A model generated the notes under the pieces. It saw nothing but the letters and a program-made list of their open reading frames with translations, made no database searches and had not been told where the DNA came from. A stretch of DNA of 64,000 nucleotides. Origin: Elusimicrobiota bacterium (GTDB taxonomy: Bacteria > Elusimicrobiota > Elusimicrobia > UBA1565). Of this stretch, positions 34,552 through 61,830 are shown piece by piece (position 1 is the stretch's first letter; each line of letters begins with the position of its first letter). The stretch is from contig JBAZVI010000002.1 in the NCBI GenBank assembly GCA_041660925.1, positions 19,906 through 83,905 on the forward strand, written 5' to 3'. The position numbers and the translations under genes were made by a program.

Positions 34552-36647
34552 AGACCGCCCTGCTCGAGATCGGCGTCGAGACCCTGCCGGCGCGCTTCAT
34601 CCGTCCGACCCTGCGCCAGATGGAGGCGCTGGCCGTCGAGATGCTCAAGGCCGAGCGCCTCGAGCACGGCGCCGTCCGCGCCGTCGGCTCTCCGATGCGC
34701 CTGGCGCTCCTCATCTCGGGCGTCGCCGAGAAGTCCTCCGCCGACGAGCGCGAGGCCTCCGGGCCGCCCGCGCGCCTGCTCAAGGACGAGAAGGGCGCGT
34801 ACACGCCGCAGGCGCTGGGCTTCGCCCGGGCGCAGGGCGTCCGGGTCGAGGACCTCTCGACGAAGGAGACGCCCAAGGGACTCGTCCTGCTCGCCCGCAA
34901 GACCCTTCCCGGCGAGGGCGCGCTGCAGGTCCTGCGCCGCGTCTTCCCGGCGCTCATCGGGCGTCTCGAGTTCCCGAAGACCCTCGAGTGGGAGGAGTCG
35001 CGCTTCCGCTTCGGCCGACCGATCCGCAACCTCGTCGCCCTCTACGGGAAGAAGGTCGTGCCCTTCACGCTGGCCGGCGTGCGCGCGGGCAGCCGCACGC
35101 GCGGACTCGCCGCGCTCGGGCAGAAGCCCGTGCCCGTCGCCGACCCCGACAAGTACGTGAAGACCCTGCGCGACCGCTGCGTGCTCGTCGACCAGGACGA
35201 GCGCATGAAGGCCCTGCGCGAGGGGCTCGAAGCCGCCGCGAAGCGCTCCGGCGGCCGCCTCGACGAGGACGACGAGCTCCTCGAGCAGCTGAACTTCCTC
35301 TGCGAGCATCCCGTCGCCGTGCTCGCCGGCTTCGACAAGGCCTATCTCGAGCTGCCGCAGGCCCTGCTCACGACCGTGCTCAAGACCCAGCTCAAGTTCT
35401 TCCCGCTCGTCGGCAAGGACGGCCGGCTCCTCCCCGAGTTCATCGGGGTCCGCGACGGCGTCAGCGAGGGCCAGAAGGAGGTGCAGTACGGCTTCGAGCG
35501 CGTGCTCACCGCGCGCTACAGCGACGCGCGCTTCTTCTTCGGGCGCGACCGCGAGACGACGCTGTCCGCCAAGCGCGCGAAGCTGAAGCTCGTCGGCTTC
35601 CAGAAGGGCCTGGGCACGATGCTCGACAAGAGCGACCGCACCCTCGCCCTGACGCGCTGGCTCTGCGAGCGCCTGCGCCAGGAGAAGCATCTCGACGAGC
35701 GTTCGGCCGAGGCCATCGCCGACCTCTGCCACTGCGACCTCGTCAGCGACGTGGTCAAGGAGTTCCCCGAGCTGCAGGGGACGATGGGCGGCGTCTACGC
35801 CCGCCACGAGGACCTCGGCGAGCGCGTCGCGCTCGGTCTCGAGGAGTTCTACTTCCCCGTGGGAGCGAAGGGCCGGCTCCCCTCGCACCTGGAGGCCGTG
35901 CTCGCCTCGCTCGCCGGGAAAGTCGACGCCGTCGCCGCGATGTTCTCCGCCGGGATGAAGCCGACGGGCAGCGAGGACCCCTTCGCGCTGCGCCGGCTCG
36001 GCAACGGCGCCGTGCGCATCCTCCTCGAGAAGCAGGTCCGCGTCCCGCTGCGCGAGATCCTCGAGGCGGCTCTTGCCGTCGTCGAGAAGCAGGAGCTTCC
36101 CGCCTCCCGGCTCAAGGACGGGAAGGCCGAGACCCTGCGCGAGCTCGAGGAGTTCTTCTGGCAGCGGGCCGAGTCGCTCTTCCTCGACCAGGGCTTCCGG
36201 CAGGACGAGCTCAAGGCGGTCAAAGACGGCGGCCTCGACGACTTCCCCCGCACCTACAAACGCCTCGCCGCCCTGCACGCCCTGCGCGCGGAAGCCGAGT
36301 TCTCCGCGCTCGCCCAGGCCTTCAAGCGCGCCTCGCACATCGTGAAGGGCGACGACGGGGCTTCGCTCCAGGACGTCGACAAGGCCCTGTTCTCCGAGGA
36401 GGCCGAGCGCGGGCTCTACGACGCGCTCGCCCGCGTCGAGGGCGAGGTCCGCAGCAAGACCGCCGAGGAGGAGTACGAGGCGGCCCTGCGGGCGCTGGTG
36501 CGCATCAAGCCGGACCTCGACCTCTTCTTCGAGAAGGTCCTCGTCATGGCCCAGGACCCGAAGGTGAAGGCGAACCGCCTCTCGCTCGTCGGCCGGCTCG
36601 TGCGGCTCTTCCGCTCGGTCGCCGACGTCTCCCAGATCCAGAACTAA
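34548..36647 (+). CDS. glyS: glycine--tRNA ligase beta subunit
   Basis: Trimmed from ORF 34395..36647 to ATG at 34548 ([17 protein letters not shown]...), overlapping glyQ stop as ATGA; GlyS-like throughout. Confidence 0.9.
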
Positions 36648-36652
36648 GCGAA

Positions 36653-36702
36653 GCGTGAAACAGCGTGGAGGGGCCTTTCGGCCCCGCCCCGCTGTTTCAC
36701 GC
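36653..36702. terminator. nested inverted repeat between convergent glyS and toxin-antitoxin genes (candidate bidirectional terminator)
   Basis: 13-bp outer inverted repeat gcgtgaaacagcg/cgctgtttcacgc enclosing inner hairpin ggggcc-tttc-ggcccc; no clean U-tract on either strand. Confidence 0.45.
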
Positions 36703-36707
36703 TCTGT

Positions 36708-36869
36708 TCAGTGAAGACGGCGACGATAGGTCCGTTCGTTGCGGCGTAGGACTCGCAGGACCGTCACGATGCGCTTGCCGTCGTCGATGGAGTAGAGGAT
36801 CCGCCAGATGCATCCTTCGCCCGTCGGGTGAAATACCCCCGGGCCGAGACCGCCTTCTCCGGACGCTTC
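36708..36869 (-). pseudogene. RelE/ParE-family toxin C-terminal remnant (N-terminal half absent; probable degraded toxin)
   Basis: Frame ending at stop 36708-36710 reads ...GVFHPTGEGCIWRILYSIDDGKRIVTVLRVLRRNERTYRRRLH, resembling RelE/ParE C-termini; upstream in this frame is only the off-frame translation of the antitoxin gene. Confidence 0.4.
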
Positions 36870-37039
36870 AGGTGACTCTTCCACGCTTTCTGTGCGGCGC
36901 GGAGGTCCGCCAGCTCCTGGTGGTAGGTCTCCTCCACGGCTTTCCGCAGGAGATCCGCCATCGGGCAGCGCATCTCGACGGCGAGATGCTTGAGCCCGCT
37001 GTGCAGTTCTTCCGGCAGATAGATGGTCGTGCGTACCAT
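36764..37039 (-). CDS. ribbon-helix-helix (CopG/ParD-like) antitoxin
   Basis: ATG at 37037-37039 preceded by GGAGGG; MVRTTIYLPEELHSGLKHLAVEMRCPMADLLRKAVEETY is a typical RHH N-terminal domain; 91 aa, translated manually codon by codon. Confidence 0.65.
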   Translation of the reverse strand: MVRTTIYLPEELHSGLKHLAVEMRCPMADLLRKAVEETYHQELADLRAAQKAWKSHLKRPEKAVSARGYFTRRAKDASGGSSTPSTTASAS

Positions 37040-37348
37040 GGGGATACCCTCCATGGATAGTATGGGGTATAGACATACATATGTCAATATGTCCCAAAGC
37101 CATCTCCCCACCCCGATCATCCCCCCTCCTGCGGTCTTCAAATAGGATACGTACGGGAACGCAATAAGTTCCATTTGAGATATGAATATTTGGCGGACGC
37201 CTTCGGCCCTGCCCCGCGAATCTGGAACTTTCCCACGCCTCGGCGCGTACTCCCTATATGGATGCAGCGGCGTCAGATACAGCGGCGTCAGGCACCGCAA
37301 CTTTCGGAACTTATTGGGGGTGCGCGGGGATAAGCGCGGGCCTGTGCT

Positions 37349-37648
37349 CGCTAGGAGTCCGTCCGAGTAATAGCGTATTCCCCGGAGGCCCTCAGCCTGA
37401 GCCGTGCGCAAGGCGTGACGAGCGAGCATAGCTTCGCTATGTGAGCGAGGAGCAACGCGGCGCACGGCCGGGATGGGGCCTCCCGCTCCTCCTCGTATCC
37501 TCGTCGGAGGAGCGGGTCGCGCGCTATTGGGCTCCTCCTTCGTTGCTCGTCGCTTACAGGCCTTCAGGCCTGCGCGCTCCTCGCGCCTCGGCTCGCTCCA
37601 ACAGCGCGCGACCGGAGAACACGCTATTACTCGGACGGACTCCTAGCG
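37349..37648. repeat. 300-bp element bounded by 28-bp perfect terminal inverted repeats (candidate MITE or structured RNA)
   Basis: cgctaggagtccgtccgagtaatagcgt at 37349-37376 is the exact reverse complement of acgctattactcggacggactcctagcg at 37621-37648; interior holds further hairpins; no credible ORF. Confidence 0.45.
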
Positions 37649-37906
37649 GCTGCGTGAGCGCAAGTCTCGAAAGTTGCAAAAGTTGACGTCTGACCCCATC
37701 AGGATCACCTCAGTGAAAGTTCCATATCTCCCCTTCCTGCGAGTTCGCACTATCGGACTCCTCATTGCGTGCGATCGCGGCACTATCAGGGATGGGGTGC
37801 CGCCGAAGGGGCAGGGGAAGGGGGCTCTTTCCTCCCCGCGTACGGTCCTGACGCTATGGGTCGGGGTGTCGGTGAAGAGGGCGATGCGGGGGCGGGAGGT
37901 GGAGGG

Positions 37907-39535
37907 TCAGCGGTACTTGCCGCGGGCGACGGGCATGCGCCGGCCGATGCCGAAGGCCTTTCCGGTGATCTTCACTCCGGGAGCGGCCTGGCGGCGCTTG
38001 TACTCGGTGCGGTCGATGCGGTCGAGCACGTCGAGGACGAGGGCCTTGCGGTGTCCCCGGCGGACGATGGCGTCGAGCGTGCGGCCCTCCTCGACGTAGG
38101 CGCGCATGATGTCGTCGAGGACCTCGTAGTCGGGGAGGTCGTCCTGGTCCTTCTGTCCCGGCTTGAGCTCGGCCGAGGGGGCCTTGCGGATGGAGCTCTC
38201 GGGGATGCGCTCCCCTCCGCGGTTGATGAAGCGCGCGAGCTCGTAGACCGTGGTCTTGGGCACGTCCGAGATGAGGGAGAGCCCCCCCGCCATGTCGCCG
38301 TAGAGCGTGCAGTAGCCCACCGAGCACTCCGACTTGTTCCCCGTCGAGAGCAGCAGCGCCCCGCGCTGGTTGCTCAGCGCCATGAGGAGCATCCCGCGCA
38401 GGCGCGCCTGGACGTTCTGCTCGACGAGCGAGCCCGGCGCGGCGGTCTCTCCGAGCGCCCCGAGCGCGGCCTGGTGGATGGGGTTGATGGGGAGCATCAC
38501 CGTCTCGACGCCGAGGTTGCGCGCGAGGGCGAGCGCGTCGTCGACGCTCCCTTTGCTGGAGTACTTCGAGGGCATGAGGACGCCGAGCACGTTGCCCGGG
38601 CCGAGGGCGTCGGCCGCGAGCGTGCAGACGAGAGCCGAGTCGATGCCGCCGCTCAAACCCACGACGGCGCGGGTGAAGCCGCACTTGCGCGCGTAGTCGC
38701 GCAGGCCGAGCAGCAGGGCTTTGTAGATCTCCTCGGTCTCTCCCTCCGCGCGCAGGGCGATGGCCGGCGCGGCGGCGTCCGGGTCGACGAGGACGAGGTC
38801 CTCCCCGAAGCCGCGGGCGAGCGCGACGAGGCGTCCCTTCGCGTCGAGCGCCATGCTCGCGCCGTCGAAGACGAGCTCGTCGTTGCCGCCGACGAGGTTG
38901 CAGTAGAGGAACGGGAGGCGGTGGCGCCGGGCCTGGCTGCGCAGCATCTTCAGGCGGAAGCCGCGCTTGCCGCGGTAGTAGGGCGAGGCGGAGAGGTTGA
39001 GGAGGAGGTCCGCCTTGGCCCGGGCGAGCGCCGCGACCGGGTCGCGGTCATAGAGCGGCTTCTCCCAGAAGGAGCGGTCGTTCCAGGCGTCCTCGCAGAC
39101 GGTGACGCCGAGGCGGCGGCCTTCGAAGGGGATGGGTTCGTTGCGCGGGGAGGGCTCGAAGTAGCGGCCCTCGTCGAAGACGTCGTAGGTCGGGATGAGG
39201 GTCTTGAAGCGCCGGGCGGCGACCTTCCCGCGGTGCAGGAGGGCGGCGGCGTTGAAGAGGGCCTTGCCGCGGCCGCGGTTGGGCTCGGCGTAGCCTACGA
39301 GCATCGCGGTCCGGCGGGAGGCGCGGGCGAGCTCCCCGAGGGCCTTGAGGTTCGCGCGCACGAAGTCGGGCTGGTAGAGCAGGTCCCCCGAGGGGTAGCC
39401 GGGGATGCACAGCTCGGGGAAGAGCACGAGTCCGGCCCCGCGGCGCTCGGCCTCGGCGTAGGCGTGCAGGATGCGGTCGCGGTTCCCTCGGATGTCTCCG
39501 ACGGTGGTGTCGAGCTGGGCGAGCGCGACCTTCAT
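37907..39535 (-). CDS. nadE: glutamine-dependent NAD+ synthetase (N-terminal CN-hydrolase domain + C-terminal synthetase domain)
   Basis: 542 aa; nitrilase-like N-terminus (MKVALAQLDTTVGDI..., LFPELCIPGYP) and NAD synthetase PP-loop GLSGGIDS. Confidence 0.9.
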   Translation of the reverse strand: MKVALAQLDTTVGDIRGNRDRILHAYAEAERRGAGLVLFPELCIPGYPSGDLLYQPDFVRANLKALGELARASRRTAMLVGYAEPNRGRGKALFNAAALLHRGKVAARRFKTLIPTYDVFDEGRYFEPSPRNEPIPFEGRRLGVTVCEDAWNDRSFWEKPLYDRDPVAALARAKADLLLNLSASPYYRGKRGFRLKMLRSQARRHRLPFLYCNLVGGNDELVFDGASMALDAKGRLVALARGFGEDLVLVDPDAAAPAIALRAEGETEEIYKALLLGLRDYARKCGFTRAVVGLSGGIDSALVCTLAADALGPGNVLGVLMPSKYSSKGSVDDALALARNLGVETVMLPINPIHQAALGALGETAAPGSLVEQNVQARLRGMLLMALSNQRGALLLSTGNKSECSVGYCTLYGDMAGGLSLISDVPKTTVYELARFINRGGERIPESSIRKAPSAELKPGQKDQDDLPDYEVLDDIMRAYVEEGRTLDAIVRRGHRKALVLDVLDRIDRTEYKRRQAAPGVKITGKAFGIGRRMPVARGKYR

Positions 39536-40605: not shown

Positions 40606-40633
40606 GCGGGGCGTTCCGACGGGCCCCGCTCAC
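40602..40633 (+). terminator. stem-loop overlapping the lipoprotein stop codon (terminator-like, no U-tract)
   Basis: gtgagcggggc-loop-gccccgctcac, 11-bp perfect stem. Confidence 0.4.
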
Positions 40634-40847
40634 TCCCCTCACCCCCGCCCCCTCGCCGGCACCCCGACGCTGATAGTGCCGCAGACCGGACGCTTGCGGA
40701 ACCTGTAGTCCGGTCGCCCGCGTGGCGGTAGAGGGGAGGTAGTTTAACGGCGGGGCGTTCCGACGGGTCCCCGGGGGCCCTTGGGCCCACCTTGCGCAAG
40801 GCCTCCCGACCCTTCATCCCGGGCGCATCGCCGGCTATCCTGAGGAC

Positions 40848-43844: not shown

Positions 43845-45158
43845 TTACTGGCCAGCAGCCAGTAACTCGCCCGTGCGTGCATCGAACACCGCCCAGCCCT
43901 CGCCGGGGGTGACGACGGCCACGCGCAGGCCGTCGGCGCTGTAGACGATGCGCGTGCCGGTGGCCGGGTGGATGAGCCCCTCGCGGGCCCACTCGGCGAA
44001 GCGCCGGCGCAGCCAGGGCTCCCCGTCGTGGAGCACGAACCAGCCGTCGCGCGTGCGCCACCACCAGCGGTCCTGATGGCGCACCATCCGAGGACTTCCG
44101 CTCGTCGGCGTCCACCAGCGCGCGCCCTTGCGGATGAGCCAGGCCCAGCGGCCCTCCCGGCCAGCGCCCCAGGCCGCGCCCGCGTGCAGCCACGCGGCGT
44201 TCTTCCCCGCGTGCCAGTGCGGCTTGCGCGCGCCGCCGTCGGCGGCGCGCCAGGCCGCATAGGCCGGTTCGGCGTCCGGCGGCTCGAGGCGCTCGATGAA
44301 GGCCGGCGGCGGGACGCTCGCGCGTACCGGCGTCCCGTCGGGCAGGGCCGCCGGGGTGAGCGCCCTGAGGTGGGCGAAGCTCGGCGCGGCGAGCTTCCCC
44401 GTCGGCGGGTCGAAGGGGTCCTTCCCCAGCCAGTGCTTGAGGGTCGGCGGCCGGAACTCGAAGGGACGACTCTTCTTCGCAGGCTTCGACGCGGCCTTCT
44501 TCGGGGCGCGCAGGGCCGCGAGCAGGGGCTCCGGCAGCGGCGCCATCCGGCCCTCGAAGTCCGCGCGGGCCTCGACCGCTTCGACTTCGCGCCAATCGTC
44601 GATGTCGGTCCCGTGCGTGGAGCCGCCGTTGCGGCGGTGTCCAGCTCTCTGTCCGCGCACGCGCTCGGAGGAGGCTCCTCCTGAAGCGTGGGAGTCCCCC
44701 CCCGCTTGCGCGGGGGCATCCGCATCGTTGGCGCGCGTCCATTCCCCCGCCCGGGATGCGCGGGCCGACAGGTCCGAGAAGGCCCCCGCGCCCACGGCGT
44801 CGCGCAGAGCTTCTCCTTCGCGCGGACGGGCGGAGTCCGTCGCGCGGGCCCGGGCCGAGCTGTGCTCTGAGAGCCGGGCGAGCGCCCGCTCGAGCCGAGT
44901 CAGGTCCTCGCGGTAGAAGGCTTCCACCCGCTCGGGAGTAGGCGACGACGCCTCCGGACGGGGCGGGTTTGGCACCGCGCCCTTCCTCGGCGGAGCGCCC
45001 GGCAGCAGCGAACGCAGCGCGCTCAATGTCCGGCAATCGCTCAGGAAGGGCGGCAGGTCGTTTTCGGGGAGCAGGAGCAGGGCGAACGAGAGCCCCGCCA
45101 GCAGGCCGCCCAGTCCGGCCGCCGCTTTGCGCCTCCAGGAGACCTCTCCGAAGGGCAT
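43845..45158 (-). CDS. hypothetical membrane-anchored protein with Trp-rich C-terminal domain
   Basis: 437 aa; N-terminal TM helix, long Ala/Arg/Ser-rich low-complexity region, W-rich C-terminal domain; coding status partly uncertain in high-GC DNA. Confidence 0.45.
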   Translation of the reverse strand: MPFGEVSWRRKAAAGLGGLLAGLSFALLLLPENDLPPFLSDCRTLSALRSLLPGAPPRKGAVPNPPRPEASSPTPERVEAFYREDLTRLERALARLSEHSSARARATDSARPREGEALRDAVGAGAFSDLSARASRAGEWTRANDADAPAQAGGDSHASGGASSERVRGQRAGHRRNGGSTHGTDIDDWREVEAVEARADFEGRMAPLPEPLLAALRAPKKAASKPAKKSRPFEFRPPTLKHWLGKDPFDPPTGKLAAPSFAHLRALTPAALPDGTPVRASVPPPAFIERLEPPDAEPAYAAWRAADGGARKPHWHAGKNAAWLHAGAAWGAGREGRWAWLIRKGARWWTPTSGSPRMVRHQDRWWWRTRDGWFVLHDGEPWLRRRFAEWAREGLIHPATGTRIVYSADGLRVAVVTPGEGWAVFDARTGELLAAGQ

Positions 45159-47190: not shown

Positions 47191-47225
47191 GTCGTCCGCG
47201 ATTCTAGCAGTTTTCGTCCGAGGAG

Positions 47226-47462
47226 CTACTCGAGTGGAAGCGAATCGATAGTGGCAGGCGGGGAGTCTAAACCGGCGAGGAAACGCGCTACGAATTTTGC
47301 AGCGATGAGCCCGGCGAGCAGGATGAGGATAAGTCGGAGTTGCGTGGCGTGGAAGCGCCGCACCTTCATGTACTTCTTGTAGACGACACCGTCGCGCGTG
47401 ACCTTCCCGATGAATTTGCGACGGTATAATACGCGTTCCCAGCGGGAAGAGGGCATAGGCAC
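47226..47462 (-). CDS. hypothetical small membrane protein (78 aa)
   Basis: ORF track only; one hydrophobic helix; lower-GC region. Confidence 0.35.
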
Positions 47463-47532
47463 ATTTCTCTGTTGTCTCTCTCCGTTTGGAGCGAGAGTCG
47501 GATGTGCGCGGAAGGACGGTGCATCCTACAAA

Positions 47533-48687
47533 TTACAGGAGCATCTCTTCATCCCGATGGCATGGGAGCGTCGAGGGCTTTGATTTCTGCTCATGCAATA
47601 GTGCTAGCTCATGTCCGCGTCGAAGCATCGGCCGCTCAAGCAGATAGAAACTGATTGTGGCGCAGATGAACGCCGCAAGGACGTTCAAAGGGAATGCCTG
47701 TGCGAGACCCAGCGGCCGTCCTGCGAGCTCCGACCCGCTTACGAGGAATATCTGTTGCCAGAGGTAGAGGCCGTAAGAGATTCTCCCTACCCAGCGCAGC
47801 CACGGCAATTCCAGCATGCGACCTGCCAAGGTGTGGGGATTCAGCATCGTGCATGCGACCAGCGCGGCAGCGGATATCCCAAGGAGCATCGTCATGAGCG
47901 GAGGACGAAAGATGACGATCGCAAAGAAGCCGAAGAAAAGGAGTGGGAACTTCGATGGGGAAAGGACGCGTCGGGAGCGTGCTAGCCACGTGGGATACTC
48001 GAATAGAATCGCGGTGAGGCATCCCCAAAGCAGGCCGTCGAACCTCAGATCCGTCCGTGCGGAGCGGTTGAGGCCGGGTATAAACGCATCGACGATCCCG
48101 AATTGCCCATCGAGATTCCTCCAGATCGGGAGAATGAGTACGGCAAGAACGAGAGCGGTCCTTCCATTCCGTATGCCCAGCATCGCGAGACATACAGGCC
48201 AAAGCAAGTAGAACTGTTCTTCGATGGATAGCGACCATATGTGCGCGGTGTACCATCCGTGTCCCGGCGCATATGTGAGCAGGTTGCGAATGTGGAGAAG
48301 ACAAGTCATCCATTCTCCGCGAGAGACATTCACTCCAAAGAGTATCGAGATAACCGCCAAAATGAATAGGAATAACGCGTATGCGGGGATGATTCGGAAT
48401 GCTCGACGGAGATAAAAAGGCAGAAGGGCGAAATCTCCGATTTTCCGTTTATCGCGTATCAGTCTGTTCGTGATGAGAAAACCACTGAGCGTAAAAAAAA
48501 GGTCCACCCCGCAACTGCCGTTGCGCAGGATATTATCGAAAATCCAGGAGAGGACTCTGCCGGGTGGGGTCGGCATGGCTGCGCTGGCATGGGCGACCAA
48601 GACGAGGAGTATAGCGACGCCTCTCCATCCATCCAAAGTCGGGAGATGCCCTTGTAAGAATGAACGCGCATCCTTTTCGCGTTGCAT
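47533..48687 (-). CDS. acyltransferase family 3 membrane protein (OafA/OatA-like O-acyltransferase)
   Basis: Trimmed from ORF 47533..49065 to ATG at 48685-48687 (MQREKDARSFLQGHLPTLDGWRGVAILLVLVAH...); polytopic, acyltransferase-3-like N-terminal motif. Confidence 0.7.
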   Translation of the reverse strand: MQREKDARSFLQGHLPTLDGWRGVAILLVLVAHASAAMPTPPGRVLSWIFDNILRNGSCGVDLFFTLSGFLITNRLIRDKRKIGDFALLPFYLRRAFRIIPAYALFLFILAVISILFGVNVSRGEWMTCLLHIRNLLTYAPGHGWYTAHIWSLSIEEQFYLLWPVCLAMLGIRNGRTALVLAVLILPIWRNLDGQFGIVDAFIPGLNRSARTDLRFDGLLWGCLTAILFEYPTWLARSRRVLSPSKFPLLFFGFFAIVIFRPPLMTMLLGISAAALVACTMLNPHTLAGRMLELPWLRWVGRISYGLYLWQQIFLVSGSELAGRPLGLAQAFPLNVLAAFICATISFYLLERPMLRRGHELALLHEQKSKPSTLPCHRDEEMLL

Positions 48688-48689
48688 CG

Positions 48690-55330: not shown

Positions 55331-56247
55331 TCGAGTGTGCCTCCCGGGAGAAGTTCCGCGCAAGTGCCGTTCTTGAGCGCCGCGCCCAGATCCTTCGGCA
55401 TGTTCGTGCAAGGTTCGAGGACCACGGTGTAAAGGTCCCGCCAGCCTCCGAAGGTCATGAATAGCCAAGTGAAGGGAAATACGTGAAGAGGAAAGTGCAG
55501 GCGGATGCGGCGTCCCGTACGCGAATCCCTGACTCCGCACCAGCCCGCTGGGAGGTCTCGGACGCAGAGGAAATCGCGGTGCTTATGCTCGGGAGAGGGC
55601 AGCTCTTCGAGGTTTACTCGGCGCCCTTCTGGGCCTGGGGCGAGCGGCCAAGTGAAACCCCCGCCAGAGACGATTCGAGTCCCGAAGCCTTCTTCGATGG
55701 GGAGGACAGTCCCTCCAGGGAGCTCTAGACGATGATGAGGTGTCACCGCGATGGGGAGGTGCTGTTTGAAGAGAAAGCGCAAGGGTTTGTCATCGAGATT
55801 GCGGATCCGGTAGCGGATGTCCATCCGTGCCGCTTCCGGGTCCATGGAGACGGTCTTCTCGCAGTAGGCGGGGACGGAGGCTGTCCTCAGGGTCATCTGA
55901 GCGCAACGCTCTGTCTCCTCGCAATCCCATGCCCGCGACCACCATTCCCCATGATCCGGTAATCTTCGGCCCTGAAACGAGCATTCCGCGTCATTCGGGA
56001 AAAGCTCTTCCCAGCCGCCGGACCAATGGTCGTCGTATCCGGCGCTTTCGTGCGGGCGCTGCAGGCCGACGTGCGGGTTCCGCCAGATCCATTCGGTTCC
56101 CGTGGCCTTGTCGACCAAACTCCAAATCTTCGCGCCGAAATCCGGAAGGATGTCGGCGTGCATTCGGGGGTTTTCAAGGCGAATGACACGGTGAGCGGCG
56201 CTGCCGCAGTGGCCTTTCGTGCGCACCGTCATCTTCCCGTTTGGCAT
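55303..56247 (-). CDS. hypothetical protein
   Basis: From ORF 55303..56355, start uncertain (ATG 56245-56247 or 56230-56232); no family recognised. Confidence 0.5.
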   Translation of the reverse strand: MPNGKMTVRTKGHCGSAAHRVIRLENPRMHADILPDFGAKIWSLVDKATGTEWIWRNPHVGLQRPHESAGYDDHWSGGWEELFPNDAECSFQGRRLPDHGEWWSRAWDCEETERCAQMTLRTASVPAYCEKTVSMDPEAARMDIRYRIRNLDDKPLRFLFKQHLPIAVTPHHRLELPGGTVLPIEEGFGTRIVSGGGFTWPLAPGPEGRRVNLEELPSPEHKHRDFLCVRDLPAGWCGVRDSRTGRRIRLHFPLHVFPFTWLFMTFGGWRDLYTVVLEPCTNMPKDLGAALKNGTCAELLPGGTLECQVSVELS

Positions 56248-56269
56248 GGAGGGATTCGCTCTAGCGTAG

Positions 56270-57298
56270 TCAGCCCTTCGCCGGGCTCTCCGCAGTGCAG
56301 ATCTCGTGATGGAGTGCGACATATGTCGGGGGGCACCAATGAGGGAGCGTGCCATCCCCCCCGCGGACGTCCGTCTCGAACACCGGCGTGGTCTTCCCGA
56401 ATCGCGTTAGAAGCGTGTTCTTGGCGGCGACGTCCTCGAACTTGTCAAGGATGACGAACTTGTAGCCATTGTAATCGTCTGCCTTCTTGAAATCGAGATA
56501 CGCGACCCCATGCGCTTCACAAAGCCTCCTGTACGCGGAGGCGATCTCGACCCGTTTGTCCCGGTAGTATTCACGGAGTTCAGGGCCCGTCATCAGCATG
56601 TGAATCAGGCAGGCAGTCAGTTCATTCGCACGGAGATTCAGTCCGTATGAGAGCGTCATGTCATGCTTGTCGTAGATTAGGAAGCGTCGGACCCAGGAAT
56701 AGACGTCCGCTCGCCGTGTGGAAACGAGGCCTCCCTCTCCCGATGGGAGGATCTTCGTAGCATAGAATGAGAACGCGAGGTCGGCATACGCCGATCCGAG
56801 AACTCCCTCGAGGTAGTGTGCGTGGGCGGCATCCACGATGAGAGGTATTCGGTTCTTCTCGCAGTAGGATTCGATCTCGCGGTATGAGGGTGATAGGAAT
56901 CCTCCGATCACCGAGTAGACGACTACGGCGGCGCGTGGGTCCGGGAGGGCAGCGACCGTCGAGGCAAGAGATTCGGGAGTCATCGCCAGGAAGTCTTTTG
57001 TGGCGGAATCGGCGACGAGGACCTCCATCCCCAACAGCTTCGGGACCGTGTAGAGCGCTCGCATCGTGTTCGATTGGATGATGACGTGAGTCTTCGAGCA
57101 GGCATATTTGTAGTATGCCAACAGGCAGAAAATCGCGGCCCCTCCAGAACAAACGGGGACCGAGTCCTTCCCCGGAAGGAACTCTCGGGAGGATTCCTGA
57201 TAGAAGTGTCCTTCCGCGACCTTGCCTGTCTTAAAAAGCTCCTCGGCCTTGCGCAGGTATGAGGCCACAAGACAATCGGGGAATGAGACGATATTCAT
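56270..57298 (-). CDS. DegT/DnrJ/EryC1/StrS-family PLP-dependent sugar aminotransferase
   Basis: From ORF 56270..57370, ATG at 57296-57298 preceded by GGGAGGA; PLP-lysine region SFYATKILPSGEGG. Confidence 0.8.
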   Translation of the reverse strand: MNIVSFPDCLVASYLRKAEELFKTGKVAEGHFYQESSREFLPGKDSVPVCSGGAAIFCLLAYYKYACSKTHVIIQSNTMRALYTVPKLLGMEVLVADSATKDFLAMTPESLASTVAALPDPRAAVVVYSVIGGFLSPSYREIESYCEKNRIPLIVDAAHAHYLEGVLGSAYADLAFSFYATKILPSGEGGLVSTRRADVYSWVRRFLIYDKHDMTLSYGLNLRANELTACLIHMLMTGPELREYYRDKRVEIASAYRRLCEAHGVAYLDFKKADDYNGYKFVILDKFEDVAAKNTLLTRFGKTTPVFETDVRGGDGTLPHWCPPTYVALHHEICTAESPAKG

Positions 57299-57432
57299 CG
57301 GTCCTCCCGCCTCGCCGGATGCTCCATGCTGTTCGTGAAATCGTACAAAATTGCCTCTTCGATGAGGCAATCCCGTCCGACTCAGTTTGATGCAGCTATA
57401 AGGTAAGAGAGAACGGGCGGCATGCCGTCAAC

Positions 57433-58659
57433 TCACGCGCCGGGTGCGTGGGAGTTCGACGGCATCGAGAGGATACTCGGATGTCCCGATTCAAGACATC
57501 GTCCTGCCAAGGTCTCGCAATACAATGCACCCATCTTCTCGACATATCGGGCCATGCTGAACTTCTCGCTCCAGGTCCGGTACCCGGCTTCCCGCAAGGC
57601 GGCGAGAGAGGCTGACGGCGCGGCGAAGATTCGAAGAAGGCGATCCGCCAGGACAGAGGGATCGTTCGGCGGGATGAGGAACCCGTTGGTCTCGTCCTGG
57701 ATTATTTCCGGGACTCCCCCTACGGCAGTGGCTACGACAAGTTTCTTCAGACACAGCGCCTCGAGGATGCTGTTCGGGATGCCTTCGCTTTCCGATGGGA
57801 GTGCGACGACGTCCGCGGTCTTGAGCGCGGCGGCGACATCCTCGATGTGACCCTTGAAGTGTATCCAATCGCGGACTCCCTCAGCGACGGCCATGCGGCA
57901 GAGAGCGTCGAAGTAGAGGCCTCCCCCGCCGTCCGTGGCGGATTCGTGGGAACCATAAACGACGACCGACAGCGGGGGTCCGCGTCGTCGGATCAATGCC
58001 AGCGCGCGCAGGAGAGTCTCGAAGCCCTTCCGTACGGTGATGCGGCTGACGACCGCTAATATCGGAGGGAGAGGTTCTCCGTCGGCGCGGACGATGTCTG
58101 GCTCCGCCAGAGGAGGACGCCCGTCGTAGATGCACGCGATCTTCGTCGGGGAAATCCTGGAACGCTGGATGAGCTCATCTCGGAGGTATTCGCCGTTCAC
58201 CGCGTAGGCGTCCACATGCGTCTGGGTGAGACGGTCGAGCTGGTGGTATGCCCACAACACGGACGCTGGCCGGTCGGACCAGTCGAGGCTTGTGTGCATG
58301 CGGAAGATATGACGCACCCCCGGGGAACTCCGCCTGACCAAGCGGCAGACGATGCTCTCGCGAAAGGCGTTCGATTGGAGGAGACGGATGCCTTCGCGGC
58401 GGGTGAGTTCGAGGATGCGTGCCGCCGCTGGCCACGGGCGCCGGAACATCAGTTCGGGTATCACATGCACGCCGAGGCCCGTCTCGGTGAACTTCCGGGC
58501 TAGAGGCCCATCCCTTCCCGTCAGGAGGAGTGGGCGACAGTGCAGACGGTCGCGCAGATGGATGGCCCAGCGGTGGACCTGCCCTTCGATTCCTCCCAGC
58601 GAGGAGGCCCGGCGCACCAGCCCAATGGGGCATCCCTCGGGCAGTTCAGATAGAGTCAT
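57433..58659 (-). CDS. glycosyltransferase family 4 (GT-B fold)
   Basis: Trimmed from ORF 57433..59169 to ATG at 58657-58659 (MTLSELPEG...); C-terminal motif LPSESEGIPNSILEAL typical of GT4. Confidence 0.8.
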   Translation of the reverse strand: MTLSELPEGCPIGLVRRASSLGGIEGQVHRWAIHLRDRLHCRPLLLTGRDGPLARKFTETGLGVHVIPELMFRRPWPAAARILELTRREGIRLLQSNAFRESIVCRLVRRSSPGVRHIFRMHTSLDWSDRPASVLWAYHQLDRLTQTHVDAYAVNGEYLRDELIQRSRISPTKIACIYDGRPPLAEPDIVRADGEPLPPILAVVSRITVRKGFETLLRALALIRRRGPPLSVVVYGSHESATDGGGGLYFDALCRMAVAEGVRDWIHFKGHIEDVAAALKTADVVALPSESEGIPNSILEALCLKKLVVATAVGGVPEIIQDETNGFLIPPNDPSVLADRLLRIFAAPSASLAALREAGYRTWSEKFSMARYVEKMGALYCETLAGRCLESGHPSILSMPSNSHAPGA

Positions 58660-59384
58660 GACGATGGCGGACGGATGAATGCAAGATAATGGGTGCACAG
58701 GAACGGCACGCGACTCAAGAGCGCACAGACGGCCGGCGAGTACGGGGCAAGGGCTCGCGTGATGGGCGGGGCCAGGGTGATCGGAATCAGTTCTATAGTG
58801 GAATCGGGGAAGAGGCTGAAGATCTCGGCGCGAGAAATCCCGTGGACATCGCGGTTGAAAGGGTTGTCGATGCGGAAGTCGTACCATACGATCGTCCCAT
58901 TTGGAGCAAGGACGCGGACCATCTCCCGAGCAATTTCGGCCTTTAATGCGGAGTCCGCGATCGAGGTGAACATCGTGCTTTGGAGTACGATGTCGAATGC
59001 TGCGTCGGGGAGTCCAGTCCGGGCGGCGTTCCTGCAGAGGATGCGGACGCTCCCGCCGGTGCGGTAGAGGGCCTCGCGGGCGCGCGCTTCGATGAGTTCG
59101 ATGCCGATGAGATTCTCCGGCCGCACGCCCCATCGAATGAACTCGAGCAGCCAGGTTCCTTCGCCGCACCCGAGCTCGAGAACGTGCATCCCGGGGAATT
59201 CGGGCAGGCCGATGCGCTGCAACGCATGCAGGACGGCTTCGTTTCGTTCACGGGTCATGAGGATGTGCGCCGGATTGTCGTCGGAATAGCGGGCGTGTAC
59301 ATCGGCTTTCTCTCGGCGCTTATACGACGCGCGTATCCGCGCTTCTTCGTCCTCGAAGTCGCGGGAAGGCTCTCGGATCATCAT
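58656..59384 (-). CDS. class I SAM-dependent methyltransferase
   Basis: 242 aa; SAM-binding motif VLELGCGEG; stop overlaps GT4 start (ATGA). Confidence 0.75.
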   Translation of the reverse strand: MMIREPSRDFEDEEARIRASYKRREKADVHARYSDDNPAHILMTRERNEAVLHALQRIGLPEFPGMHVLELGCGEGTWLLEFIRWGVRPENLIGIELIEARAREALYRTGGSVRILCRNAARTGLPDAAFDIVLQSTMFTSIADSALKAEIAREMVRVLAPNGTIVWYDFRIDNPFNRDVHGISRAEIFSLFPDSTIELIPITLAPPITRALAPYSPAVCALLSRVPFLCTHYLAFIRPPSS

Positions 59385-60745
59385 GTCTTCGCTGGCGGGA
59401 ACTCTCCCGTCTTCAAAAGGGTACGGTAACGCTTCTGGGATTCCCCCCCCAGCCCGAAGAAGAAGAATTGCGCGAGTTCCGACAGGGCCGCCGCCTCCTT
59501 CTGCGGAGCCGCGCGCGCTTTGTTCCAGAGTCCCAGGAGCCCCCTTGCATCCTCGAATTCGTCCGGATGGTCCGCCATGCTGTAATAGCCCGCATCCTTG
59601 TATCGGAAGACGGGTACGGCGCGGACGAGCATCTCATTGTAAACGGTCGATGTCCGTGCGACGCAGAAATCGATTCGAGAGGCGAAGTCGTCCATCGCCA
59701 GATCGAGCGACCCCATCCCGACGCAACGATGCAGCACCTCAGCCTCCGGATAATCTGCGCGCACGTTCAAGGGGTGCATCTTGACGACATATCGGAGATC
59801 GAGAACCTCCGCGACCTTCTCCGCGATGGAGAGCATCCGGCGGTTGCTGCCTTTGTAGATCTCCTGCTCGAAAGCGATGCCGAAGACCCCGGAGGGCGGT
59901 CGTGCGGCTCGCGCGGCCTTCACCGCCGCATGGTCGAAATCCAGGTAGCGGGGATGTCCCATGATGAACAACCGCTCGGCGGGGATGCGCTTGCACAGCT
60001 CACGGCGAGTGAACTCTCCCCAGATCAGAAACGCATCCGAGACGAAAGACTCGTAATTAATCATGTTGATGTGTGGGTCGCTCTCATCGTAGACGATGAT
60101 CTGACCATGCTGTAGCGCGGCGGTGCGGCATCCCTGGGCTTTCGCCACTTGCATCAGGACATTCGGCCATGGGAGGGCGTCGCTGAAGGCGAGGGCAAGG
60201 CGGTAGCGCTTGAAAGATATCGCGCGGGGAAGAGTGGCGGCGAACTTCACATGCTGTCCAAGGAGGCATGACAGGTAGAGGCGTTGGTCGAGACGAAGTT
60301 CGGCCGGAAGCGTGAGGGCGGTCGGGAGCAGCTGTGTGAGGAGATAGTGCAGTCCCGCTGGGCTTGCGGATGCCTCCCAGCCCCGAAGGTCGAGGACGTC
60401 GGCATCGTCGGAGAGGGCCTGTATCTTGCGGAAGGTCTCCTCGAGATCGGAGCGAAGGAATTCCCCGTGAACGAGGATGACGCGGGGGCTCTTCGACGGC
60501 GTCCGTCTCAGCCAACGGAGCTTGGGAGAAAACGCCAGGAGACGGAGCAGGCCCGAGCAGAGGAAGAGAATCGTCCTGAGTGCTCCCCATTCCGCATGTA
60601 TCGTCGTCCAGATGTGATATGAGAGGGCAGCGCCATACGCGACGCCGGCGTCGACCTGTCGATCCAGTATGGTGCGGACCTTGCGGTAGAGGAGATATTC
60701 TCGACGGGAATCCCTGCAGGGTGCCGCGTGCTCGTAGCGTCTCAT
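59381..60745 (-). CDS. hypothetical glycan-biosynthesis protein
   Basis: Trimmed from ORF 59381..61168 to ATG at 60743-60745 (MRRYEHAAP...); resembles capsule polysaccharide biosynthesis proteins only loosely. Confidence 0.55.
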   Translation of the reverse strand: MRRYEHAAPCRDSRREYLLYRKVRTILDRQVDAGVAYGAALSYHIWTTIHAEWGALRTILFLCSGLLRLLAFSPKLRWLRRTPSKSPRVILVHGEFLRSDLEETFRKIQALSDDADVLDLRGWEASASPAGLHYLLTQLLPTALTLPAELRLDQRLYLSCLLGQHVKFAATLPRAISFKRYRLALAFSDALPWPNVLMQVAKAQGCRTAALQHGQIIVYDESDPHINMINYESFVSDAFLIWGEFTRRELCKRIPAERLFIMGHPRYLDFDHAAVKAARAARPPSGVFGIAFEQEIYKGSNRRMLSIAEKVAEVLDLRYVVKMHPLNVRADYPEAEVLHRCVGMGSLDLAMDDFASRIDFCVARTSTVYNEMLVRAVPVFRYKDAGYYSMADHPDEFEDARGLLGLWNKARAAPQKEAAALSELAQFFFFGLGGESQKRYRTLLKTGEFPPAKT

Positions 60746-61830
60746 CGGGCGGATGCCCGCGCGTATGGTTTCTCTGGGGGGACGGAGGGCAGCGCCTTGG
60801 CGAGGACGACGAAAACCTGGTCCCCTCTCCCCTCCTCGTTGAGCTGGCGCGCATTCGACCGGAATCTTCGCAGTTCCTCCTTCGTGAAGATGCTGTTGCG
60901 CGGAGACTTTATGTGGGATCGATCGGACATCAGGGGTATGTCTCGGCGATATTGCTCGCTGCCTATGAATTGGAACTGCGTCGAGTCCCATCCCCACCTC
61001 TCGATGCGGAGCCCTGCGTGGGACGCCAACAGCTCGAGAGCCTTCCGCGTGAAGATGAAGCAGTGGCGCGGTGCGTCGAGCTGCACCCAGGACGGGCCAT
61101 AGATCTCCCAACAGTAGTTGGGGAGGATGGGTGTTCGAATTAGGATCTTCCCTTCGTCGGCAAGACACCTCGAGAGCGCAATCAGGGTCGTCTCTGGCTC
61201 CGGCACATGCTCGAGGGAATGGTTCATCAGGATGAGATCGAACCGCTCTGCGGATTCCGGGAGAGCGCTCCTGCGGAGCACGAGTCTGCCGTCATCGCTG
61301 GAGGCCCCAGTCGGCGGCAGGAATGGGTCGATGCCGCGCAGATGCGAGAACCCATCTCGGTAGAGGGACTGGAGTAGTCCACCTCCCCCGCATCCGACGT
61401 CGAGGATGCGGGAGCTGCGGCCTGCACCGGCCCACTCGAGCCACCGATAATGCTCGGGGTAGCCTTGCCAGGCGATGATCAACGCCCCCAGCATCCGCTT
61501 GGGTAGGGATCCGTCACCAAGACAGAAGCATGAACGGCATCGGCGGGCGAATGTCTCGAAGAAGCCCGGAGGATGCAGTGGGCCCATCGGAGTGGAGTCG
61601 AAGGAGTAGTATTCCGCGGGGTATGCGATTCCTGGACGGAGTTGAATCTCCGCGCGCTGCATCGTCCCGCAGCCTCCGCAGAGGGCATACGTGTAAGGTT
61701 CTCTTCCTCCGAAGAACATTTCATGGATTGAGAACGATTCGTTCCCGGTGGCATTCCCGCAAATCCGGCATGGAAAGGCATCCTGCGCGACGTCTGCTCC
61801 CGGAGTAGCGTTCGTTCCGGAAGGCTTCAT
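60742..61830 (-). CDS. class I SAM-dependent methyltransferase with N-terminal Cys4 zinc-ribbon
   Basis: From ORF 60742..61902, ATG at 61828-61830; CRICGN...CGGCG zinc-ribbon-like pair then LDVGCGGGGLL SAM-binding motif. Confidence 0.7.
   Translation of the reverse strand: MKPSGTNATPGADVAQDAFPCRICGNATGNESFSIHEMFFGGREPYTYALCGGCGTMQRAEIQLRPGIAYPAEYYSFDSTPMGPLHPPGFFETFARRCRSCFCLGDGSLPKRMLGALIIAWQGYPEHYRWLEWAGAGRSSRILDVGCGGGGLLQSLYRDGFSHLRGIDPFLPPTGASSDDGRLVLRRSALPESAERFDLILMNHSLEHVPEPETTLIALSRCLADEGKILIRTPILPNYCWEIYGPSWVQLDAPRHCFIFTRKALELLASHAGLRIERWGWDSTQFQFIGSEQYRRDIPLMSDRSHIKSPRNSIFTKEELRRFRSNARQLNEEGRGDQVFVVLAKALPSVPPEKPYARASAR

What the first reader, a model, noticed from the sequence alone, without database searches (positions are those of the whole stretch)
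37040..37906. About 0.85 kb gene-free, lower-GC island with recurrent AAGTTCC-containing motifs
Between the antitoxin start and the nadE stop there is no convincing ORF in a genome that is otherwise tightly packed. The composition is visibly less GC-rich. Several short motifs recur in both orientations: caataagttcc at 37162-37172 with its reverse complement ggaacttattg at 37303-37313, aagttcc near 37222 and 37716, and aaagttgcaaaagttgac near 37661. This could be a decayed mobile-element scar, a regulatory region or an RNA gene.
Basis: seen in the sequence. Interest (0 to 1): 0.5.

Follow-up and report, generated by a model that had tools for sequence, protein, structure and literature searches.

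The report
IS1182-type MITE in a patchwork spacer
The gene-free stretch between nadE and a toxin-antitoxin pair in this Elusimicrobiota genome is strain-specific extra non-coding DNA whose core is an intact 0.3-kb miniature transposon derived from an IS1182-family insertion sequence, which is an ordinary kind of feature.

Summary
The interval is real, non-coding and modestly GC-poor: 61% against 68% for the window.

The core, 37351-37646, is a 288-bp MITE flanked by CTAG. Its inverted ends are perfect for 26 nt and it folds very stably. Its two halves match the left and right ends of a 1.73-kb insertion sequence from the same metagenome, whose 460-aa transposase scores as IS1182 family. At least four other loci carry copies with the same internal junction, and three assemblies break at the repeat.

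The nearest relative found (NadE 96% identical) has about 200 nt between the nadE stop and the antitoxin start. About 690 nt (37219-37906) is therefore strain-specific. It holds the MITE, a ~100-nt repeat with a second copy at 40.6 kb, and about 290 nt of unexplained sequence. 37041-37218 is the ancestral antitoxin promoter region.

Each end of the insertion sequence carries a ~100-nt stem-loop with strong covariation. That is the only mildly unusual point.

Verdict: a new member of a known kind, of low interest.

The parts
37351..37646 (+). MITE (non-autonomous IS1182-family derivative) together with CTAG on each side (37351-37354 and 37643-37646). On a 4-bp duplication model the element proper is 37355-37642, 288 bp. 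On the + strand the left-end half comes first.
   Evidence: The 23-nt tip GGAGTCCGTCCGAGTAATAGCGT occurs exactly twice in the window, in inverted orientation, against 0 expected. The arms are 37 nt at 94.6%. MFE is -208/-216 kcal/mol, z -9.6/-11.6. The two halves match the two ends of the full-length IS at L003 1076-2806. Other copies with the same junction are in L011, L013, L009 and L005.
37354..37493 (+). Left-end (IRL-type) half of the MITE: a 22-nt invariant tip followed by a ~100-nt covarying stem-loop
   Evidence: Model R1 gives 130 bits. It is closest to L006_L, L003_L and L001_L. Covariation is shown.
37505..37643 (-). Right-end (IRR-type) half of the MITE: the same tip and the same stem-loop architecture
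   Evidence: Model R1 gives 156 bits. It is closest to L011_R, L002_R, L013_L and L003_R.
37482..37516 (.). Central hairpin at the junction of the two halves (CCCGCTCCTCC / GGAGGAGCGGG)
   Evidence: I17: 11 bp, 100% complementary. The same junction is present in L011, L013, L009 and L005.
37297..37312 (.). Left arm of a 16-nt inverted repeat that encloses the MITE target. It contains one GGAACTT.
   Evidence: I7: 88% complementary with 37662-37677. When the MITE is excised in silico the two arms pair as a stem.
37662..37677 (.). Right arm of the inverted repeat that encloses the MITE target
   Evidence: (I7).
37041..37218 (-). Ancestral spacer shared with the closest relative. It holds the antitoxin promoter and leader, the GGAACTTATTGC motif (37161-37172) and a remnant of the nadE terminator hairpin (37192-37218).
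   Evidence: 37173->36808 is 93% identical to L016 3457-3822. 37041-37218 is 79% identical over 188 nt to L016 3589-3402. The hairpin-core similarity was reached by 3 of 300 shuffles.
37059..37087 (-). Sigma-70-like promoter TTGACA-N17-CATACT of the antitoxin gene
   Evidence: 10 of 12 consensus positions, and the only such site in 36600-38000. It is identical in L016.
37219..37350 (.). Orphan non-coding segment with no counterpart in L016. It holds a 15-nt tandem repeat (37261-37291) and GGAACTT at 37224-37230 and 37306-37312.
   Evidence: No other copy was found in the window or in the loci fetched.
37647..37724 (.). Orphan non-coding segment, about 51% GC
   Evidence: no match anywhere.
37725..37823 (-). 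Copy of a ~100-nt repeat, here called X-type: C-rich 5' arm, GGCACCCC-N5-CTGATAGTGCCGC, a variable hairpin, then AGGGGAG at the 3' arm
   Evidence: It aligns with window 40635-40741 and with L002 107-161, where 50 nt are 92% identical at E 4e-15. The 40.6-kb copy is absent from L016.
37824..37906 (.). C-rich orphan segment immediately downstream of the nadE stop on the - strand
   Evidence: Homology to L016 ends at the nadE stop codon.

Best explanation
The spacer is a patchwork of small insertions in an indel-prone gap downstream of nadE. Its core is a 288-bp MITE, an internal-deletion derivative of an IS1182-family insertion sequence. The MITE keeps both ends of the parent (a 22-nt invariant tip plus a ~100-nt structured subterminal domain on each side) but has no transposase gene.

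Inferred: the MITE was mobilised in trans by the DDE transposase of full-length copies such as the one in L003. It landed at a CTAG in the centre of a quasi-palindrome, GCTCG-CTAG-CGGC, which itself lies inside a 16-bp inverted repeat.

Shown: the surrounding ~390 nt of extra DNA is also strain-specific and includes one copy of a second ~100-nt repeat. 37041-37218 is the ancestral antitoxin promoter region with a remnant of the nadE terminator.

Inferred: the AAGTTCC/GGAACTT copies are partly ancestral and partly arms of local hairpins, not one element.

Inferred: the MITE is probably neutral here. Its very stable fold could block read-through from nadE into the antitoxin gene.
For: 1. Ends: the 23-nt tip occurs exactly twice in the window, inverted, against 0 expected.
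2. Parent element: L003 1076-2806 carries the same tip at both ends, 1731 bp apart, around a 460-aa ORF. That ORF scores 400.5 bits on NCBIfam IS1182 (cut-off 270), and it also matches Pfam DUF772 and DDE_Tnp_1.
3. Both halves of the window element align with the ends of full-length or truncated IS copies over 110-130 nt at 76-85% identity.
4. Copy number and spread: one metagenome scan gave 14 loci. L011, L013, L009 and L005 carry MITE copies at 75-90% identity, in unrelated flanks, with the same central junction.
5. Contigs L020 and L021, which are 100% identical to the window, break at 37338 and 37380, as assemblies do at repeats.
6. The flanks are CTAG on both sides in the window and in L013, and L003 shows CTAG at both ends as far as its contig reaches. 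A 4-bp direct repeat is reported for the IS1182-family element ISPse1 (PMC3281130). IS1182-derived MITEs with 25-26-nt inverted repeats and a direct repeat of 4 bp in one case and none in the other are reported in Methanosarcina (PMC3852290). Palindromic targets are reported for IS1272, another family member (PMC5678879).
7. The nearest relative, L016, has about 200 nt between the nadE stop and the antitoxin ATG. It lacks window 37219-37906.
8. There is no coding periodicity, no Rfam match and no tRNA.
Against: No clean empty site was recovered. L016 lacks the MITE together with about 390 nt of surrounding DNA, so the insertion event itself was not observed.

CTAG is palindromic, so a duplication cannot be told apart from an extension of the inverted repeat. 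L009 is flanked by TCAG and CCAG, which fits 2-3 bp better than 4 bp.

No full-length IS lies in the 64-kb window. The autonomous partner is shown only in the same metagenome, not in the same genome.

About 290 nt (37219-37350, 37647-37724 and 37824-37906) remain unexplained.
Confidence: 0.88

Rival explanations
1. The 300-nt element is a structured non-coding RNA gene, a three-way junction on a long basal stem, with a cellular function at this locus.
For: The fold is very stable (z -9.6/-11.6). Covariation in the ~100-nt stem-loops is strong: 18 of 31 pairs show double changes, 92.9% of cells are paired against 32-39% when the partners are slid, and 0 of 500 shuffles reach the observed values for four of the five measures. 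G.T pairs outnumber A.C pairs 26 to 4, which hints at folding on one strand.
Against: The same sequences form the two termini of a 1.73-kb transposase-bearing IS. The basal stem is simply the two inverted ends pairing. Both strands fold about equally well. Copies lie in unrelated contexts and break assemblies. There is no Rfam family and no promoter or terminator consensus inside the element.
Confidence: 0.05
2. The non-MITE part of the interval is the scar of a larger integrated element that entered downstream of nadE and was later mostly deleted. The GGAACTT repeats would be leftover recombination or binding sites.
For: About 690 nt are absent from the closest relative. The adjacent toxin gene carries a 158-nt frameshifting deletion. 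Four GGAACTT copies cluster in 560 nt, out of 11 in 64 kb. There is a 15-nt tandem repeat.
Against: There is no integrase or any other gene remnant, and no coding signal. No att-like duplication of the nadE 3' end was found: 240 of 300 shuffles score at least as well. Motif recurrence at this level arises in about 10% of shuffles. One GGAACTT copy is ancestral. Three viral-contig scans found nothing.
Confidence: 0.2
3. The GGAACTT/AAGTTCC sites are operators for a transcription factor that controls the toxin-antitoxin operon or nadE.
For: There are four copies in both orientations, three of them as TGGAACTT. One copy is conserved in L016 about 80 nt upstream of the antitoxin -35 hexamer.
Against: Three of the four copies lie in DNA that the closest relative lacks. 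The statistical support is weak. The other seven copies in the window show no shared extended context.
Confidence: 0.08
4. A protein-coding gene was missed in the interval.
For: ORFs of up to 62 aa lie wholly inside the interval, and a few longer ones of up to 81 aa overlap the MITE. A 233-aa reading frame runs in frame into the antitoxin.
Against: There is no codon-position GC periodicity in a genome where real genes have GC3 of 0.8-0.98. The long frame crosses the MITE and the promoter. L016 lacks the region entirely.
Confidence: 0.02

Closest known systems
MITEs derived from IS1182-family insertion sequences, for example the ISMac2-derived MITEs of Methanosarcina acetivorans (PMC3852290)
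   Same: It is a short non-autonomous element with no ORF and 25-26-nt terminal inverted repeats. It is compatible with a 4-bp direct repeat, occurs in several copies, and its ends are homologous to an IS1182-family partner.
   Different: At 288 bp it is longer than those MITEs (160-169 bp). It keeps a ~100-nt covarying stem-loop from each IS end. The host is Elusimicrobiota, from groundwater or sediment metagenomes. Its sequence is unrelated to theirs.
IS1182-family insertion sequences: ISPse1 (1653 bp, 16-bp inverted repeats, 4-bp direct repeat; PMC3281130) and IS1272 (targets stem-loops and palindromes, no duplication; PMC5678879)
   Same: The parent IS (L003, 1731 bp) has a single DDE transposase with a DUF772 N-terminal domain and passes the NCBIfam IS1182 cut-off. 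Insertion sites are palindromic: CTAG, and in the window a 13-nt quasi-palindrome inside a 16-bp inverted repeat.
   Different: Here the target palindrome appears to be kept on both sides (CTAG...CTAG), not replaced as described for IS1272. The conserved subterminal stem-loops are not described in the papers I read.
Highly structured bacterial MITEs and repeats such as Correia/NEMIS, ERIC, RUP and BOX (from my own knowledge, not tested here)
   Same: They are intergenic, fold into long stable hairpins, can be co-transcribed with neighbouring genes and break assemblies.
   Different: There is no sequence relationship. No evidence was obtained here for transcription, processing or promoter activity.

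Membership tests
MITE (non-autonomous DDE-transposon derivative) | Terminal inverted repeats | tested here: met
   The tip is identical for 26 nt when the flanking CTA is counted, and the arms run 37 nt at 94.6%.
MITE (non-autonomous DDE-transposon derivative) | Small size with no transposase ORF | tested here: met
   The element is 288-300 bp. It shows no codon periodicity, and only short stop-bounded ORFs overlap it.
MITE (non-autonomous DDE-transposon derivative) | Both ends homologous to those of a full-length autonomous element | tested here: met
   L003 1076-2806 has the same tip at both ends. The left and right halves of the MITE carry the left-type and right-type signatures of the IS ends.
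MITE (non-autonomous DDE-transposon derivative) | Several copies at different loci that share one deletion junction | tested here: met
   The window (also assembled as L012), L011, L013, L009 and L005 share the junction. Their flanks differ and identity is 75-90%.
MITE (non-autonomous DDE-transposon derivative) | Target-site duplication | tested here: inconclusive
   CTAG lies on both sides in the window and in L013. L009 has TCAG and CCAG. CTAG is palindromic, so it cannot be separated from the inverted repeat without an empty site.
MITE (non-autonomous DDE-transposon derivative) | Presence/absence polymorphism with a precise empty site | tested here: inconclusive
   L016 lacks the MITE but also the ~390 nt around it. 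L020 and L021 are the same strain and simply end at the MITE.
MITE (non-autonomous DDE-transposon derivative) | Autonomous partner present in the same genome | not testable with these tools
   The partner occurs in the same metagenome, Ga0172379 (L003, L004, L010). There is none in the 64-kb window. No complete genome of the strain is available.
IS1182 family (parent element) | Transposase passes the curated IS1182 model | tested here: met
   NF033551 gives 400.5 bits against a cut-off of 270, E 1.2e-119. Pfam DUF772 and DDE_Tnp_1 also match.
IS1182 family (parent element) | Length, single ORF and inverted ends within the family range | tested here: met
   The element is 1731 bp with one 460-aa ORF. 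ISPse1, for comparison, is 1653 bp (PMC3281130).
Known RNA family (Rfam) | Match to any of the 4227 covariance models | tested here: not met
   There is no relevant match at E<=10 in 36500-38100 and none at gathering score in the whole window.

The most novel reading that the evidence does not exclude
The ~100-nt subterminal stem-loop at both ends of this IS1182 lineage, and so twice in every MITE copy, may be a functional single-stranded structure and not a by-product of palindromic DNA.

It covaries strongly and shows a G.T over A.C bias on the strand that reads from the outside of the element inward. One possibility is a hairpin that the transposase recognises, which would echo the stem-loop-targeted transposition of IS1272. 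Another is an insulator that folds in transcripts reading into the element from either flank.
Probability: 0.2. Interest if true: 0.45.

Novelty: new member of a known kind. Interest (0 to 1): 0.18.

Why it matters
It matters mostly for annotation. An unexplained 0.87-kb gene-free island is accounted for by a MITE, a second small repeat and the ancestral promoter of a decaying toxin-antitoxin pair. About 290 nt remain unexplained.

It gives a defined MITE and IS1182 pair for Elusimicrobiota, a phylum known almost entirely from metagenomes. It also explains why assemblies of this population break at this point.

The covarying stem-loops at the IS ends offer a small, testable lead on how IS1182-family elements, whose mechanism is poorly known, recognise their ends or their targets.

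Tried and rejected
- Rfam at a permissive threshold on the region, and at gathering score on the whole window: nothing relevant.
- ARAGORN: no tRNA or tmRNA in the region.
- Exact look-up of the window's NadE and of a longer antitoxin start variant: neither is on record.
- Viral-contig scans with the MITE tip, the X-type repeat core and the GCAACTTTCGGAACTTATTG motif: 0 hits each.
- Sigma-54 promoter reading of TGGAAC...TTGC: rejected by eye, because the GG-N10-GC spacing is not met at any copy.
- att-like duplication of the nadE 3' end at the far side of the extra DNA: not better than shuffles.
- Missed coding gene: rejected by the frame-specific GC analysis.
- More MITE or IS ends in the window, searched with a covariance model: only the two halves of this one element. 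The 23-bit hit at 8024-8130 lies inside a long ORF and has no tip motif.
- GATAGTGC as a general motif: the extra hits in L008 and L014 lie in unrelated contexts.
- GC as a discriminator: the crude gene call misses lower-GC genes, so the intergenic baseline of about 64% is only approximate.

Full report
**The observation**

The interval lies between the ATG of an RHH-type antitoxin gene (complement, 37040) and the stop of nadE (complement, 37907-37909). It contains no ORF longer than 62 aa that lies wholly inside it. A frame-specific GC plot shows no codon periodicity from 37040 to about 37760: the spread between frames is at most 0.18, against 0.44-0.68 in glyS and nadE.

GC is 61.3% against 68.3% for the window, but unevenly. 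It is 50.5% in 37041-37232, 51% in 37649-37734 and 66.7% in the central 300 nt. A crude gene call puts other non-coding stretches at about 64% pooled. The composition is therefore lower than the window mean, but not exceptional.

The reverse complement of CAATAAGTTCC is at 37306-37316, and the AAAGTTGCAAAAGTTGAC string starts at 37670. GGAACTT/AAGTTCC occurs four times here out of 11 in the window. However, in shuffles of the flanks some 7-mer reaches four copies about 10% of the time.

The centre of the interval is a 300-nt element with inverted ends. GGAGTCCGTCCGAGTAATAGCGT occurs at 37354-37376(+) and 37621-37643(-), and nowhere else in the window, against 0 expected. The arms extend to 37 nt at 94.6% identity.

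The element folds as a long basal stem carrying a three-way junction. MFE is -208 and -216 kcal/mol on the two strands, with z-scores of -9.6 and -11.6. There is no Rfam match at E<=10 and no tRNA.

**What the element is**

A scan of species-representative genomes with a 20-mer from the tip found one locus, in an Elusimicrobia groundwater MAG. There the tip and about 120 nt of homologous sequence precede a truncated DUF772-type transposase gene.

A metagenome scan found 14 loci, 12 of them from one sample, Ga0172379. L012 is the window's own locus, 100% identical over 3788 bp.

L003 carries the tip at both ends, 1731 bp apart, around a 460-aa ORF. That ORF scores 400.5 bits on the NCBIfam IS1182 model (cut-off 270) and also matches Pfam DUF772 and DDE_Tnp_1.

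The left half of the window element carries the signatures of left IS ends (L003_L, L001_L, L006_L). The right half carries those of right IS ends (L003_R, L011_R, L002_R).

L011, L013, L009 and L005 hold copies at 75-90% identity in unrelated flanks. They have the same central junction, so this is one amplified non-autonomous family and not a set of independent deletions.

Two further contigs from other data sets, L020 and L021, are 100% identical to the window. They stop at 37338 and 37380, the usual behaviour of assemblers at repeats.

The element is therefore a MITE of an IS1182-family insertion sequence. MITEs of this family are already described (PMC3852290).

**Target and duplication**

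The window copy and L013 are flanked by CTAG on both sides, and L003 shows CTAG at both ends as far as its contig reaches. Most single ends are preceded by CTAG or TTAG.

A 4-bp direct repeat is reported for the IS1182-family element ISPse1 (PMC3281130). It is also reported for one of the two ISMac2-derived MITEs; the other has none (PMC3852290).

CTAG is palindromic, and L009 has TCAG and CCAG. Without an empty site I cannot separate a 4-bp from a 2-3-bp duplication.

In the window the reconstructed target, GCTCG-CTAG-CGGC, is a quasi-palindrome. It lies inside a 16-bp inverted repeat (37297-37312 and 37662-37677) that pairs once the MITE is removed in silico. This agrees with reports that IS1182-family members, IS1272 in particular, prefer palindromes and stem-loops (PMC5678879).

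**Comparison with relatives**

NadE homologues place the window in Elusimicrobiota. The closest one, L016, is 96% identical in NadE and has the same gene order of nadE, antitoxin, toxin, but only about 200 nt between the nadE stop and the antitoxin ATG.
- Window 37173->36808 is 93% identical to L016 3457-3822.
- Weaker homology runs to window 37218.
- It includes a remnant of the nadE terminator hairpin, reached by 3 of 300 shuffles.
- The promoter TTGACA-N17-CATACT (37087->37059) is conserved.

About 690 nt, 37219-37906, therefore have no counterpart in L016. More distant relatives (NadE 70%) have a GDSL-lipase gene between nadE and glyS and no toxin-antitoxin pair. The gap between these genes is thus variable.

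Which state is ancestral for the ~390 non-MITE nucleotides cannot be decided without a closer outgroup.

**The rest of the extra DNA**

37725-37823 (- strand) is a copy of a ~100-nt repeat. A second copy lies at window 40635-40741, and part of a third lies directly upstream of an ABC-ATPase gene in L002, where it abuts another MITE copy.

The 40.6-kb copy is itself missing from L016 and is bracketed by an 18-nt direct repeat. Both window copies fold with a closing stem between a C-rich and a G-rich arm (z -3.0 and -1.75). With only about 2.5 copies in hand I cannot say whether it is a small mobile repeat, a shared promoter or leader, or an RNA.

The remaining ~290 nt are 37219-37350 (with a 15-nt tandem repeat), 37647-37724 and 37824-37906. 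They match nothing available to me.

Of the four GGAACTT copies:
- one is ancestral and present in L016;
- 37224-37230 pairs with it across the terminator remnant;
- 37306-37312 lies in the arm of the target inverted repeat;
- 37717-37723 sits at the edge of the X-type repeat.

I see no evidence that they form one element.

**A structural detail of the IS ends**

An alignment of 11 ends, taken from full-length IS copies and from MITE copies, left and right ends together, gives a consensus stem-loop about 100 nt long just inside the 22-nt tip. Counting the 31 pairs of that stem-loop:
- 18 pairs show compensatory double changes;
- 92.9% of cells are paired, against 32-39% when the partners are slid by 1-3 columns;
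- no shuffle out of 500 reaches the observed value for four of the five measures (2 of 500 for the count of further pair types).

The apical 6-bp hairpin alone appears as CATAGC, GATAGC, AATAGC, CAGGCC and CGATGC, each with its exact complement.

G.T pairs outnumber A.C pairs 26 to 4 on the strand read from the tip inward, at both ends. This hints at folding of one particular strand.

Three caveats apply. The sequences are related to one another. The structure was predicted on that same strand. Template-switch repair of quasi-palindromes can also produce changes that look compensatory, without any selection.

**Mechanism, with what is shown and what is inferred**

Shown:
- the element has the ends of an IS1182-family IS;
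- it lacks a transposase;
- it is multi-copy with a single shared junction;
- it sits at a palindromic CTAG;
- it lies in strain-specific DNA.

Inferred:
- it was mobilised in trans by the transposase of full-length copies;
- it inserts preferentially into palindromic intergenic sites;
- it is neutral here, or at most impedes read-through from nadE into the antitoxin gene.

**Verdict**

This is an ordinary feature: a new member of a known kind of element, sitting in a patchwork, indel-prone spacer. Interest is low. The covarying subterminal stem-loops and the second ~100-nt repeat are the only points that might repay further work.

Noticed in passing
window 36708-36813 (- strand), compared with L016 3817-4027: The ParE/RelE-type toxin gene next to the antitoxin is a pseudogene. 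Compared with the intact gene in the closest relative it has a 158-nt internal, frameshifting deletion (L016 3823-3980 are missing). Only the C-terminal ~33 codons keep the toxin frame, with a weak Pfam ParE match (E 0.0016). The antitoxin ORF now reads on for 14 extra codons.
   Followed up: partly
window 40606-40768: There is an insertion of about 145 nt relative to L016, in the gap between two + strand genes. It is bracketed by an 18-nt direct repeat, GCGGGGCGTTCCGACGGG, and contains the second copy of the ~100-nt X-type repeat (40635-40741).
   Followed up: partly
window 36652-36703; L016 3395-3441: The hairpin between glyS and the toxin remnant (GTGAAACAGCGGGGCGGGGCCGAAAGGCCCC...GCTGTTTCAC) closely resembles the nadE terminator hairpin of L016 (GTGAAACCGCGGGGCGCGGCCGAAC...CGCGGTTTCAC). 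It also resembles the remnant at window 37192-37218. This may be a REP-like family of terminator hairpins. See (D1, I2).
   Followed up: no
L014 5013-5036 and L015 1536-1559: Two contigs, L014 from the metagenome Ga0116202 and L015 a GenBank WGS contig (JACXTT01), share the 24-nt IS tip exactly and then diverge completely from the family. They may be more distant IS1182 relatives with the same terminal binding site, or truncated ends.
   Followed up: no
L001 676-1276: In the Elusimicrobia MAG JACRDT01 the IS copy is truncated after about 92 codons of the transposase. It sits about 70 nt upstream of an XRE-type regulator gene.
   Followed up: no
window 44208-44290: ARAGORN calls an 83-nt tRNA-Asp in a stretch of 78-80% GC. 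Rfam at gathering score reports no tRNA anywhere in the window. The call may be spurious or atypical.
   Followed up: no
window 47191-48689 and 55541-61826: These longer stretches have 55-61% GC and were not picked up as coding by a GC3-based gene call. They could be lower-GC, possibly acquired, genes or further non-coding islands.
   Followed up: no
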